Shown: positions 26,651 to 29,252 of the stretch, piece by piece
Position numbering within the stretch: position 1 is the first letter of the stretch
Layout of the letters: every line of letters begins with the position of its first letter
Source of the DNA: an uncultured Bacilli bacterium
GTDB taxonomy: Bacteria > Bacillota_I > Bacilli_A > RF39 > UBA660
DNA: 64,000 bases
Assembly (NCBI GenBank): GCA_934098525.1
Contig: CAKONZ010000002.1
Span: forward strand, 53,442-117,441
Reading direction: 5' to 3'
Translations under genes and position numbers: made by a program
Notes under the pieces: model-generated
What the model was told of the DNA's origin: nothing
The model's database searches: none
Seen by the model: the letters and a program-made list of their open reading frames with translations, nothing else

Positions 26651-28759
26651 CTAATTAACAACAAGTACAGCACGAGTAGAAACTCCAACATTAGCAACAC
26701 CAGTAGCGTTAATAGTACCAAACAAACCAGAATCTTTAAGACTTGCTGAAGTTACAACTGGATATCCACCTCTATTAACAAAACTAGTATTACCCCAATA
26801 AGAATCAACACTATACCATGCTGAAGCAGAATAAGAAGTATTTAAAATATGTGTTTCTTTATAACCATCACCAAGTTTAGCGTTTTTCAAATTATTTTCA
26901 CCACTTAAAGATTTAACATATGAATATTTATCATAATATTTCGAATTTGGATAAACATCTGTCCAACCAGAAGAACCAACATTAAAATCATCACTAGTGG
27001 AAGAAATCATATTAAACATAACATAATCCTTACCTCCACCAACCATATCATATGCTCCATAAATATTTCCAGTTGTTGATGCACCATAACCTAAATGTAA
27101 ATCATTTTGATAATCATTTGAAGCAACTACATATCCTGTTCCTCTCGCATCATATGTATAATATCCTGCCCAATGATACTTACCTGCTCTATTACTATCA
27201 GTAAGACCTGAGAAATTAGGATTCATCTCTTCCAATGTTTTTATTTTAAACCCAGCTGCTCCTGCACTCATTCCTGTTTTATAACCAGCATTATTAAGAT
27301 ATATATCCTCACAAGAATCATTTTGGCATCTTCCATACTTAGATTGTGATAAATAAGCAACAGCAGCCCATTCCATATTTTTAACAACGTGTGTATCTAT
27401 ATTATTATCATCACCTGTCAACTCTCCTGTTGCATTATAAGCACTAGCATTTGATGCAAAACCATATGCATTACCGGAAAGTTCCATACTTCTAATAAGT
27501 TCAAAATAAGTACTAATATTTTTATTAACTAGTGAACTCTTATCAGGTAATATTTCAACAGTATTAGTAGTAGCATTATTACTAATCTCAAATTTACCAA
27601 ACCAGAAACCAGTCAATTCTTGATCATCAAAAGTAAAAGCTGGATGTGTATAAGTACTAAAACCACCTGTTACCTCATTATAATAAGAATCACTACAATC
27701 CTCTGACTTATATGTATTAATTCCAATATTATCAGTACAACTAACAGTACCAGTATTAGAAACACCTTGTTCAAAAACAATTTGTATTTGTTGTGGTGAA
27801 GATAACCCATTACCATCTAAATTAGCATTAAAAATCTTATACTTAAATCTAGGTATCCAAACCCACATAGAATTCATATCAGTAATTGGTATCACAGTTC
27901 CAACTGGAGCATCTAAATAATCAGTTCTTAAACAATTACTAGAACTACAAGCTTTTGTAGAGCCATCAAGTAAAGTAAGTGTCGTAGCAGTTGAAGTATC
28001 TTTAACTGTAACAGCATTAGCCCAAACACCATTTTTATAATCATACCAACCATTATTACTATTAGAAGCATCTGCTTTTCTCCATAAATGAGCTGTCTCA
28101 TCATAAGTAACTGCAATCATATTAGATTCAGTAGAAGTAGTAGAAACACTTCCCTTAGTAAGTTTAGGAGCATTAGGTTCAATATATTTTTCATTTTCAT
28201 CAAAATATTGACTAGCAACAACCTTAATCTTATAATTTTTCTCTGTATTATTTAATTCATCACTATCAGTTTTATAACTATAATCAAGACCAAATCTTAA
28301 TTTATATTCATTTACTGCATTAGGTTGCATATAACTTTCATCAAGTAATCTAGCTACATCCCTAACATTATATATTCCTAAAACTTTACCATTAAGTTCA
28401 ACAACAACTTTAACAAACTTATCATCAAGCAAATTACCAGTAACACTATCACCATCAATAAGATAAACCCCATATTTAATCGCAGTATCAGAAGTATTCT
28501 TAATATTAAATTGATAATAATTATCATCTGCAAATATTGTTGAAGTACTATAATTATACTTTTCTTTATCATTAATCAAATTTAAATTAATACCCTGAGT
28601 CTTTTCCTTTAGTTCAACACTAACACCACCAGCAGTCACAAGTTGTATAGAGCTTTCCTCTACATTAGTAGTAAACAATGCATAACTAGACCCAGCTACT
28701 ATAGATAAAATACCAAGTATTGTAACAAACAATGCTATTTTATTTTTTAAATTATTCAT
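26651..28759 (-). CDS. large secreted protein with SipW-cognate (TasA/camelysin-type) signal peptide
   Basis: The best start is MNNLKNKIALFVTILGILSIVAGSSYALFTT (ATG 28759, RBS GGTGAT). It matches the SipW-type pattern K..LxxxxLGxxxxxxG(S/T)xA.F(T/S)(D/T). The rest is approximately 700 aa, S/T/N/G/Y-rich. The longer track ORF (to 28879) overlaps the upstream pilin gene. Confidence 0.55.
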   Translation of the reverse strand: MNNLKNKIALFVTILGILSIVAGSSYALFTTNVEESSIQLVTAGGVSVELKEKTQGINLNLINDKEKYNYSTSTIFADDNYYQFNIKNTSDTAIKYGVYLIDGDSVTGNLLDDKFVKVVVELNGKVLGIYNVRDVARLLDESYMQPNAVNEYKLRFGLDYSYKTDSDELNNTEKNYKIKVVASQYFDENEKYIEPNAPKLTKGSVSTTSTESNMIAVTYDETAHLWRKADASNSNNGWYDYKNGVWANAVTVKDTSTATTLTLLDGSTKACSSSNCLRTDYLDAPVGTVIPITDMNSMWVWIPRFKYKIFNANLDGNGLSSPQQIQIVFEQGVSNTGTVSCTDNIGINTYKSEDCSDSYYNEVTGGFSTYTHPAFTFDDQELTGFWFGKFEISNNATTNTVEILPDKSSLVNKNISTYFELIRSMELSGNAYGFASNASAYNATGELTGDDNNIDTHVVKNMEWAAVAYLSQSKYGRCQNDSCEDIYLNNAGYKTGMSAGAAGFKIKTLEEMNPNFSGLTDSNRAGKYHWAGYYTYDARGTGYVVASNDYQNDLHLGYGASTTGNIYGAYDMVGGGKDYVMFNMISSTSDDFNVGSSGWTDVYPNSKYYDKYSYVKSLSGENNLKNAKLGDGYKETHILNTSYSASAWYSVDSYWGNTSFVNRGGYPVVTSASLKDSGLFGTINATGVANVGVSTRAVLVVN

Positions 28760-28862
28760 TATCATCACCATTTTTCCACGATAAAACTTCCGTATCATAT
28801 ACATATTTATTTTAACATAAAATACATTTTTATTACAATAGAAAAAAGCACAAATATGCTTT

Positions 28863-29252
28863 TTATTTACAATTAACATCTACATTATATTCATAATCCC
28901 CATCTTTTTTAGTAATTGAAACATTTTTAATACTACAATCAGTTATTTCTAAATCATCAAATATCTTCTCACAATAATTTTTATAATTACCAGTACAAGA
29001 ATTTTCATTATCAATATAACTATTTCCAACTATACTAACAAAAGTATCCCCCTTATACCAAAAATCATCATCACCAACATCTTTATTAATCATAGAAAGT
29101 TCTTCAATAATAAGTTTCTCTAAATTTTTACCCCTACTATCATTACTCTCATTAATACTACCAATAAAACCAGGTAAAGTTAATGCACCTATTATAGAAA
29201 TAATAACAATAACCATCAATAACTCAACTAATGTAAATCCCTTCTTATTCAT
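28863..29252 (-). CDS. type IV prepilin-like protein (N-terminal methylation/cleavage motif)
   Basis: MNKKGFTLVELLMVIVIISIIG carries the class III signal peptide with G|F cleavage site and Glu+5. The C-terminal region has paired cysteines. Confidence 0.75.
   Translation of the reverse strand: MNKKGFTLVELLMVIVIISIIGALTLPGFIGSINESNDSRGKNLEKLIIEELSMINKDVGDDDFWYKGDTFVSIVGNSYIDNENSCTGNYKNYCEKIFDDLEITDCSIKNVSITKKDGDYEYNVDVNCK

What the first reader, a model, noticed from the sequence alone, without database searches (positions are those of the whole stretch)
26651..29252. Lone type IV prepilin gene directly upstream of a approximately 700-aa protein with a SipW/TasA-type signal peptide
A 129-aa protein with a textbook prepilin leader (KKGFTLVELLMVIVII, Glu+5, C-terminal disulfide pairs) sits 100 nt upstream of, and apparently in operon with, a large protein. 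That protein's signal peptide matches the SipW-cognate class (AGSSYALFTT) used by TasA and camelysin fibre proteins. Neither a prepilin peptidase, PilB/PilC/ComG machinery nor sipW is nearby. A tRNA-Met with a strong promoter lies immediately upstream. Pairing a type IV pilin with a SipW-type secreted giant protein is not a described arrangement. It could represent a hybrid fibre or adhesin system.
Basis: partly seen in the sequence, partly recalled or inferred. Interest (0 to 1): 0.6.

Follow-up and report, generated by a model that had tools for sequence, protein, structure and literature searches.

The report
Orphan pilin beside lectin-fold surface protein
A real but isolated type IV pilin gene sits next to a 704-residue exported protein from a very large, unnamed family of gut-bacterial surface proteins whose lectin-like binding head is the kind that hypermutation elements diversify; the two genes are conserved neighbours but separately transcribed, and nothing shows a hybrid fibre.

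Summary
Both features exist, on the minus strand. The pilin gene is 28863-29252. The large gene is 26651-28765.

**Pilin.** It is a textbook class III (prepilin) protein.

**Large protein.**
- It has no Pfam or NCBIfam hit.
- It belongs to a family of about 9,800 clusters at 50% identity. The family is multi-copy in uncultured low-GC gut Bacilli.
- Three relatives carry genuine VR/TR/RT cassettes. The window has none.
- Its N-terminus (G-S-S-Y-A|L-F) and the following beta-sandwich resemble TasA. However, it misses TIGR04088 and PF12389, and no sipW lies nearby.

**Transcription.** "In operon" is not supported. A conserved terminator hairpin and promoter separate the genes.

**Linkage.**
- All eight detectable homologues of the pilin appear to share a contig with an orthologue of the large gene.
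- More distant relatives lack an upstream pilin.
- About 8% of the family carry a prepilin leader fused to the same core.
- Two members follow pilC-pilD directly.

**Verdict.** This is a lectin-fold surface binding protein with a plausible, unproven tie to type IV filament machinery. C. perfringens PilA3/BsaC is a precedent. Interest is moderate.

The parts
29371..29447 (-). tRNA-Met (CAT), an independent unit. Promoter-like site 29461-29489; terminator 29333-29358.
   Evidence: ARAGORN; Rfam tRNA 65.9 bits; promoter and terminator scan.
29275..29302 (-). Promoter-like site in front of the pilin gene (TTTATA-16-TATTAT, 9/12). A strong RBS (AGAGAGG) follows.
   Evidence: consensus match only; sequence read.
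28863..29252 (-). Type IV pilin-class gene, 129 aa. Leader MNKKG, then F+1, E+5 and a hydrophobic alpha1-N. Globular part has Cys86/94 and Cys106/128.
   Evidence: Pfam N_methyl and TIGR02532 above cutoffs. The N-terminal helix matches solved pilins only over residues 2-70. Cys positions.
28842..28864 (-). Intrinsic-terminator-like hairpin: a 9-bp A/U-rich stem with a GC core and a U run. It starts inside the pilin stop codon.
   Evidence: RNAfold gives -7.3 kcal/mol (z -2.5). The equivalent hairpins in two orthologous loci (L082, L083) give -8.9 and -13.2. Recovered by RNAalifold. The simple scan missed it because it has only 2 GC pairs.
28809..28838 (-). Promoter of the large gene: TTGTAA-18-TAAAAT with TG. 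A conserved 5' UTR of about 50 nt follows.
   Evidence: The intergenic region is 82% identical across five loci whose flanking proteins are 41-50% identical.
28679..28765 (-). Signal peptide or anchor of the large protein (residues 1-29): basic n-region, 16-residue h-region, junction G-S-S-Y-A|L-F.
   Evidence: Sequence. Junction conserved in 139/200 family sequences. AF2 models a helix at 3-26 followed by a low-confidence stretch at 22-38.
28196..28648 (-). N-terminal beta-sandwich domain (residues about 40-190), TasA-like by fold.
26654..28123 (-). C-type-lectin/FGE-fold binding domain (residues about 215-704). The last 50 or so residues (26654-26803) align with the DGR variable regions of relatives.
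26205..26642 (-). 145-aa single-pass membrane protein, 8 nt downstream of the large gene. It is conserved only in the same clade. sepF and divIVA follow.
   Evidence: No significant Pfam hit.

Best explanation
**Overview.** Two neighbouring, separately promoted genes encode cell-surface components.

**The small gene.** It encodes a genuine type IV pilin-class protein. Such a protein needs a prepilin peptidase and an assembly ATPase and platform, and these must be encoded elsewhere in the genome.

**The large gene.** It encodes a protein of about 74 kDa once mature.
- It is exported by Sec through an N-terminal signal peptide.
- It is probably cut after Ser-Tyr-Ala29. The peptidase is unknown.
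- It carries a TasA-like beta-sandwich that acts as a stalk or assembly domain.
- It ends in a large C-type-lectin/FGE-fold head that binds an external ligand through its C-terminal surface.
- This is the same scaffold and the same surface that diversity-generating retroelements mutate in relatives.
- It is one member of a very large, unannotated, multi-copy family of uncultured low-GC gut Bacilli.

**The link to type IV filaments.** The family is repeatedly coupled to type IV filament systems. The same core occurs with a fused prepilin leader, and it also occurs directly after pilC-pilD.
- The conserved orphan pilin is therefore most likely a functional partner.
- The likeliest role is help in passing or displaying the bulky folded protein through the cell wall, as a pseudopilus does for PilA3/BsaC in C. 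perfringens.
- A subunit of a mixed fibre is less likely.

**Shown:** the identity of the pilin class, the fold of the head, DGR targeting of relatives, the transcription signals, and conserved neighbourhood in one clade.

**Inferred:** the cleavage site, the binding function, and any pilin-cargo relationship.
For: - **Pilin class:**
- **Family size and distribution:** at least 1,862 clusters at 90% identity. At 50% identity, 9,800 clusters reach E<=1e-3 and 6,109 reach E<=1e-10. Single gut MAGs hold at least 6-8 copies each.
- **DGR targeting of relatives:** in L007, 19 of 21 VR/TR mismatches fall at TR adenines. In L069, 10 of 10 do. In L072, 21 of 38 do. RT genes lie beside all three. The window's C-terminus aligns to those VRs.
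- **Signal junction:** conserved family-wide. It aligns in register with the TasA junction.
- **N-domain fold:** the best solved match is the TasA fibre.
- **Separate transcription:**
- **Pair conserved:**
  - Only 8 pilin homologue clusters exist among 5.8 billion proteins.
  - Adjacency was read directly for four clusters. It was inferred from matching contig lengths for the rest.
  - The upstream neighbour differs between loci (ligA versus lon/DUF192/tRNA-Met), yet the pilin stays with the large gene.
- **Family-level tie to type IV filaments:**
  - 10 of 200 and 12 of 145 sequences have prepilin leaders fused to the same core.
  - L039 has such a member divergent from a PilB-type ATPase.
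  - L036 and L057 have pilC, pilD and then an SYA-type member on one strand. The gap is 10 nt in L036 and about 50 nt in L057.
- **Precedent:** PMC11580942.
Against: - No type IV machinery or signal peptidase gene lies in the 64-kb window. The rest of the genome could not be read.
- A conserved terminator between the genes argues against strict co-expression.
- In 80 loci of more distant relatives, none has a separate pilin gene directly upstream. Nearby pilin genes, where present, lie 1-10 kb away with no preferred distance.
- Conservation of the pair within one clade cannot be separated from general synteny, because the whole block through sepF-divIVA-ileS is conserved.
- The window copy has no TR or RT.
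- The binding function rests on fold and on relatives, not on any assay.
Confidence: 0.55

Rival explanations
1. Neighbours by descent only. The pilin is an orphan minor pilin used by a competence or type IV pilus machine encoded elsewhere. It has no functional relation to the large surface protein, and the pair persists only because this chromosomal block (through sepF-divIVA-ileS) is syntenic in a narrow clade.
For: - A terminator and a separate promoter lie between the genes.
- None of 80 more distant family loci has a pilin directly upstream.
- The whole block is syntenic in every orthologous locus.
- The pilin, its C-terminal domain and the 145-aa gene are all confined to the same clade.
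Against: - The pilin stays with the large gene although its upstream neighbour changed (ligA in L082/L083; lon-DUF192-tRNA-Met in the window and L086).
- The pilin and the large gene co-occur one-to-one across lineages that have diverged to 41-48% pilin identity.
- Independent fusions and pilC-pilD adjacency in other lineages show the family is not neutral with respect to type IV systems.
Confidence: 0.3
2. The large protein is a SipW-processed, TasA-type subunit that polymerises by donor-strand exchange of its new N-terminus (LFTTNVEES...). It forms one adhesive fibre together with, or nucleated by, the pilin.
For: - The junction motif is TasA-like, and the roughly 10 residues after it are modelled as disordered before the first strand, as in TasA and BsaA.
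- The best solved match to the N-domain is the TasA fibre. Several other top matches are donor-strand fibre subunits: PapG, FimH, CS20, CanX, Csu and AbpA.
- One relative reaches 14.9 bits on TIGR04088. Another gives a weak TapA hit.
Against: - TIGR04088 is not met by the window protein or by any of 70 relatives scanned whole. TasA as a positive control scores 41.6 bits.
- PF12389 is hit weakly by 1 of 70 relatives.
- hhalign to the TasA family drops from 65% to 2.4% without the signal peptide.
- No ER-type signal peptidase motif occurs in the window or in any of 80 loci.
- A 490-residue head on every subunit is unlike known TasA fibres.
- Type IV pilins and donor-strand fibres assemble by unrelated mechanisms.
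Confidence: 0.1
3. The large protein is an FGE/EgtB-type enzyme acting on an extracellular substrate, not a binding protein.
Against: - Three relatives are actual DGR targets, with the VR on the equivalent C-terminal surface.
- The window protein has no Cys after residue 485. It therefore lacks the Cys pair that follows the RGG motif in formylglycine-generating enzyme. That FGE has this pair there is my own knowledge of FGE, not tested here.
Confidence: 0.05

Closest known systems
DGR variable proteins with the C-type-lectin fold (TaqVP 5VF4, TvpA 2Y3C, Mtd 1YU0; PMC6328139)
   Same: - The C-terminal segment around W-x-x-R-G-G...S-R aligns to the variable regions of family members that have real TR/RT cassettes.
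   Different: - The window copy has no TR or RT within 64 kb.
- The domain is much larger than TaqVP's, with insertions.
- It sits behind a signal peptide plus a TasA-like sandwich, an architecture not described for these proteins.
- It has no Pfam hit.
TasA / camelysin / BsaA matrix-fibre proteins and their SipW-type signal (PF12389, TIGR04088; PMC9674648, PMC11580942)
   Same: - The junction G-x-(S/T)-aromatic-A|x-F.
- About 10 flexible residues, then a beta-hairpin with the same register.
- The sandwich fold's best solved match is the TasA fibre.
   Different: - It fails both curated models.
- No sipW is adjacent.
- No significant sequence similarity remains outside the signal.
- It carries a 490-residue extra head.
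- Polymerisation is untested.
PilA3-dependent secretion of BsaC in Clostridium perfringens (PMC11580942)
   Same: A specific type IV pilin is paired functionally with a roughly 70-kDa exported protein that uses a TasA-operon-type signal, in a monoderm.
   Different: - In C. perfringens the pilin and the cargo are not adjacent. The cargo has a vWA domain and sits in a sipW operon, and the dependence was shown by mutants.
- Here only adjacency and family-level genomic association exist.
Modular type IV pilins of monoderms (Streptococcus sanguinis PilB and PilC; PMC8179133, PMC9934059)
   Same: Relatives of the large protein (for example P0091/L039, L061-L065, L070) are a prepilin leader plus a grafted binding module, next to PilB-type ATPases or minor pilins.
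   Different: - The window's large protein has no prepilin leader, and the pilin is a separate small gene.
- As far as I found, the grafted module (CLec/FGE fold) is mentioned only in passing. A DGR survey lists a GspG-type pilin domain among rare targets (PMC11661182).

Membership tests
Type IV pilin / class III signal peptide (PF07963, TIGR02532) | Curated HMM above cutoff | tested here: met
   PF07963 scores 31 bits against a cutoff of 21.2. TIGR02532 scores 30.7 against 16.3.
Type IV pilin / class III signal peptide (PF07963, TIGR02532) | Short basic leader ending in Gly, Phe/Met at +1, Glu at +5, and about 20 hydrophobic residues | tested here: met
   MNKKG|FTLVELLMVIVIISIIGAL, read directly.
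Type IV pilin / class III signal peptide (PF07963, TIGR02532) | Prepilin peptidase and assembly ATPase/platform present in the genome | not testable with these tools
   None in the 64-kb window. Related MAGs do encode them.
ComGC / GspG / named pilin equivalogs | Full-length match above the equivalog cutoff | tested here: not met
   Only the N-terminal 30-57 residues match. ComGC scores 26.9 bits against 75; GspG scores 27.4 against 88.85.
SipW-dependent-type signal peptide (TIGR04088) | HMM score of at least 19 bits | tested here: not met
   The window protein gives no hit, whether scanned whole or as its first 61 residues. None of 70 relatives hits when scanned whole. One relative's N-terminus reaches 14.9 bits. 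The TasA control scores 41.6 bits.
SipW-dependent-type signal peptide (TIGR04088) | A SipW-type (ER-type S26) signal peptidase gene in the neighbourhood or genome | tested here: not met
   No S-(G/A/S)-S-M-x-P motif occurs in any ORF of the window or of the 80+ loci. Pfam on unassigned window ORFs found none. The rest of the genome is unread.
TasA / camelysin family (PF12389) | Sequence homology of the mature domain | tested here: not met
   PF12389 is hit by 1 of 70 relatives at E=0.019. hhalign of the N-domain against the TasA family gives 65% with the signal and 2.4% without it.
TasA / camelysin family (PF12389) | TasA-type sandwich fold with a free N-terminal donor strand | tested here: inconclusive
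   [not shown]
CLec-fold DGR variable proteins | C-type-lectin/FGE fold | tested here: met
   [not shown]
CLec-fold DGR variable proteins | VR at the 3' end, with a cognate TR (adenine-specific differences) and a reverse transcriptase | tested here: not met
   The window has no repeat of the gene's 3' end and no RT-like ORF. The feature is met in relatives L007, L069 and L072. A remote TR elsewhere in the genome cannot be excluded.
Formylglycine-generating enzyme family (PF03781) | Pfam model above cutoff and the catalytic Cys pair after the RGG motif | tested here: not met
   The window protein gives no hit. Six of 70 relatives hit weakly, best E=5.6e-4. There is no Cys after residue 485. The position of the FGE Cys pair is from my own knowledge.
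Modular type IV pilins | Prepilin leader on the same polypeptide as the grafted module | tested here: not met
   The window's large protein has a Sec-type signal, not a prepilin leader. About 8% of family representatives do have a prepilin leader.

The most novel reading that the evidence does not exclude
The TasA-like "G-x-S-Y-A|phi-F" leader marks bulky lectin-fold cargo for a route through the cell wall that depends on a type IV filament, a monoderm analogue of type II secretion. The conserved orphan pilin would be the dedicated pseudopilin for its neighbour. Prepilin-fused and SYA-led versions of the same core would then be two solutions to the same display problem. In some lineages the displayed surface is reprogrammed by DGRs.
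Probability: 0.2. Interest if true: 0.75.

Novelty: new variant of a known kind. Interest (0 to 1): 0.45.

Why it matters
- If the pilin-cargo link is real, this locus and its relatives (pilC-pilD-cargo operons and prepilin-fused versions of the same core) would be natural genomic evidence for pilin-assisted export or display of large folded proteins in monoderm bacteria. So far that idea rests on one preprint in C. perfringens.
- Independently of that link, the work defines a very large (about 10^4 clusters), unannotated, multi-copy family of lectin-fold surface proteins in uncultured human and animal gut Bacilli.
- Some members are DGR targets, and some are type IV pilins. They are likely adhesins or receptor-binding proteins of organisms about which little is known.

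Tried and rejected
- **DGR in the window.** I looked for a TR copy of the gene's 3' end and for an RT. Neither was found.
- **sipW, pilD or pilB in the window.** None turned up by motif scan in six frames or by Pfam on 20 unassigned ORFs.
- **Curated models on the large protein.** Pfam and NCBIfam gave nothing on the whole protein or on 70 relatives.
- **PDB sequence-profile searches.** These gave only insignificant hits, and TasA was not found.
- **Reading beyond the window.** Looking up edge genes returned only 2.4-kb contigs, or no record at all.
- **Naming the organism.** The clusters of P0001, IleS, Lon and LigA carry no names.
- **Fold search against afdb50.** The library was not available.
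- **A partner role for the 145-aa downstream gene.** Its homologues are confined to the same clade and it has no informative domain. This is left open.
- **A riboswitch or leader in the conserved 5' UTR.** There is no Rfam hit and no covariation.
- **L029 as a pilB-linked family member.** Rejected. The prepilin-led protein beside PilB there is an LRR protein, and the family member lies 5 kb away behind housekeeping genes.
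Full report
**What is there.** Both genes lie on the minus strand.
- The small ORF (28863-29252, 129 aa) begins MNKKG|FTLVELLMVIVIISIIGAL. It passes Pfam N_methyl and TIGR02532.
- Against solved structures it matches pilins only over the N-terminal helix.
- It is the only prepilin motif in all six frames of the window.
- It has Cys at 86, 94, 106 and 128. The last pair is conserved in the orthologues.
- The large gene is 26651-28765 (704 aa) and is identical to database protein P0001. 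The orthologues and a GGTGAT Shine-Dalgarno make 28759 an equally good start.
- The 742-aa ORF that overlaps the pilin is an over-extension.
- tRNA-Met (29371-29447) has its own promoter-like site and terminator.

**Transcription.**
- Right after the pilin stop lies an A/U-rich hairpin followed by a U run (28842-28864). RNAfold gives -7.3 kcal/mol, and -8.9 and -13.2 in two orthologous loci.
- A TTGTAA-18-TAAAAT promoter with TG follows (28809-28838).
- This intergenic stretch is 82% identical across five loci whose flanking proteins are only 41-50% identical. RNAalifold recovers the hairpin.
- The large gene is followed after 8 nt by a 145-aa membrane protein, then sepF and divIVA. A T-box leader then precedes ileS.
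- The likely units are therefore tRNA | pilin | large gene-145 aa-sepF-divIVA. "In operon with the pilin" is not supported, although read-through cannot be excluded.

**The large protein's family.**
- It has no Pfam or NCBIfam hit.
- It has at least 1,862 homologous clusters at 90% identity.
- A profile search of 1.84 billion representatives finds 9,800 at E<=1e-3, 6,109 at E<=1e-10 and 2,227 at E<=1e-30.
- In species-representative genomes the hits are almost all gut MAGs labelled uncultured Bacilli, Mycoplasma or Tenericutes. Single MAGs hold at least 6-8 copies.
- The window itself is about 25% G+C and holds one copy.

**Fold and likely function.**
- An AF2 model (pLDDT 79.9) has four parts: a helix at 3-26, a low-confidence stretch at 22-38, a beta-sandwich at 40-190, and a large domain at 215-704.
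- Six of 70 relatives hit Pfam FGE-sulfatase weakly.
- Following this lead, I found that three relatives are real DGR targets.
  - Each has a 3'-terminal VR, a TR just downstream, and an RT gene.
  - VR/TR differences fall at TR adenines in 19 of 21 cases in L007 and 10 of 10 in L069.
  - L072 is less clean, at 21 of 38.
- The window protein's C-terminus aligns with those VRs. The window has no TR or RT.
- I therefore read the head as a ligand-binding module on the cell surface. This rests on fold and relatives, not on an assay.

**The N-terminus.**
- The junction G-x-S-Y-A-(I/Y/L/F)-(F/L) after the hydrophobic stretch is present in 139 of 200 family sequences. It lines up with TasA's G-G-T-W-A|A-F.
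- The window protein does not hit TIGR04088. One relative reaches 14.9 bits against a cutoff of 19, and TasA as a control scores 41.6.
- PF12389 is hit weakly by one of 70 relatives.
- Profile-profile comparison with a TasA-family alignment gives 65% probability with the signal peptide and 2.4% without it.
- No ER-type signal peptidase motif occurs in the window or in 80 related loci.
- S-Y-A also fits the ordinary -3/-1 rule of type I signal peptidase.
- Verdict: TasA-like in form, but not shown to be a member of the SipW-cognate class.

**Linkage to the pilin and to type IV systems.**
- The pilin has only eight homologous clusters among 5.8 billion proteins.
- Each appears to share a contig with an orthologue of the large gene. 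Adjacency was read directly. For the rest it is inferred from matching contig lengths.
- The block pilin-large-145 aa-sepF-divIVA-ileS is syntenic.
- The gene upstream of the pilin differs between loci (ligA versus lon-DUF192-tRNA-Met), yet the pilin stays with the large gene.
- Beyond this clade the pairing is absent. None of 80 loci has a separate pilin directly upstream, and P0014's locus has none.
- The family is still tied to type IV filaments in three other ways.
  - About 8% of representatives carry a prepilin leader fused to the same core.
  - One such member is divergent from a PilB-type ATPase and is followed by a minor pilin (L039).
  - In two MAGs an SYA-type member follows pilC and pilD on the same strand, with gaps of 10 nt (L036) and about 50 nt (L057).

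**Mechanism and rivals.**
- I favour Sec export, cleavage near Ala29, and a stalk plus lectin-fold head on the surface. The orphan pilin would help passage or display through the wall.
- PilA3 and type IV machinery do this for the 70-kDa BsaC of the sipW-bsaA-bsaB-bsaC operon in C. perfringens (PMC11580942).
- The main rival is conserved neighbourhood without function.
- A TasA-type hybrid fibre and an enzymatic role are less likely.

**Novelty and limits.**
- The components are known kinds: a type IV pilin, a CLec DGR-type binding domain, and a TasA-like leader.
- The architecture and its recurrent coupling to type IV systems are, as far as I found, undescribed. One DGR survey lists a GspG-type pilin domain among rare targets (PMC11661182).
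- No multimer modelling was possible, and afdb50 was unavailable.

Noticed in passing
L069:316-4469 (also L007:3916-8307 and L072:9794-14596): Complete DGR cassettes lie beside family members. L069 has VR 1880-2028, TR 2314-2462 (10 of 10 differences at TR adenines), an Avd-like ORF at 3121-3465 and an RT at 3450-4469. Its target carries a prepilin-like leader (NKAFTLIELL, with Ala instead of Gly at -1). This would be a DGR-diversified type IV pilin-like protein in a gut Bacilli MAG.
   Followed up: partly
window 28756-28868 (- strand): The pilin-to-large-gene intergenic region is 82% identical across five loci whose flanking proteins are 41-50% identical. Besides the terminator and promoter, a 5' UTR of about 50 nt is nearly invariant. 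It may form a hairpin over the Shine-Dalgarno sequence. It shows no covariation and has no Rfam hit.
   Followed up: partly
L036:1209-5444 and L057:213-4312: pilC (T2SSF-like), then pilD (A24 peptidase motif GGGD(I/M)K), then an SYA-type family member, all on one strand. The gap is 10 nt in L036 and about 50 nt in L057. L036 also has a DUF285-like repeat protein upstream.
   Followed up: partly
L029:1186-5555 versus L039:7716-11960: The same pilB-divergent position holds a prepilin-led LRR protein in L029 and a prepilin-led member of this family in L039. Each is followed by a minor pilin. This looks like module swapping in modular pilins.
   Followed up: no
window 46568-54018 (- strand): Conjugative type IV secretion genes sit between mutS and housekeeping genes: a VirD4/TraG coupling protein, a VirB4/TraG-P-loop ATPase and a TrbL-like membrane protein. 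This is probably an integrated element or its remnant.
   Followed up: no
window 25104-25295 (- strand): A T-box leader lies upstream of ileS. It scores 84.9 bits, just under Rfam's gathering score of 93.
   Followed up: no
window 10154-10942 (- strand): An IS30-like transposase fragment (HTH_38 plus a partial rve domain).
   Followed up: no
window 56102-58411 (- strand): A 769-aa ORF with a signal-peptide-like N-terminus in a stretch of only 17% G+C. It has no Pfam hit and is unrelated to the family studied here.
   Followed up: no
P0307 (4516 aa), P0308 (3713 aa), P0321 (2338 aa): Giant proteins that contain 8-10 matched stretches of the family profile. P0308 starts with a classic TasA-like ...VAGGTLAYW junction.
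   Followed up: no
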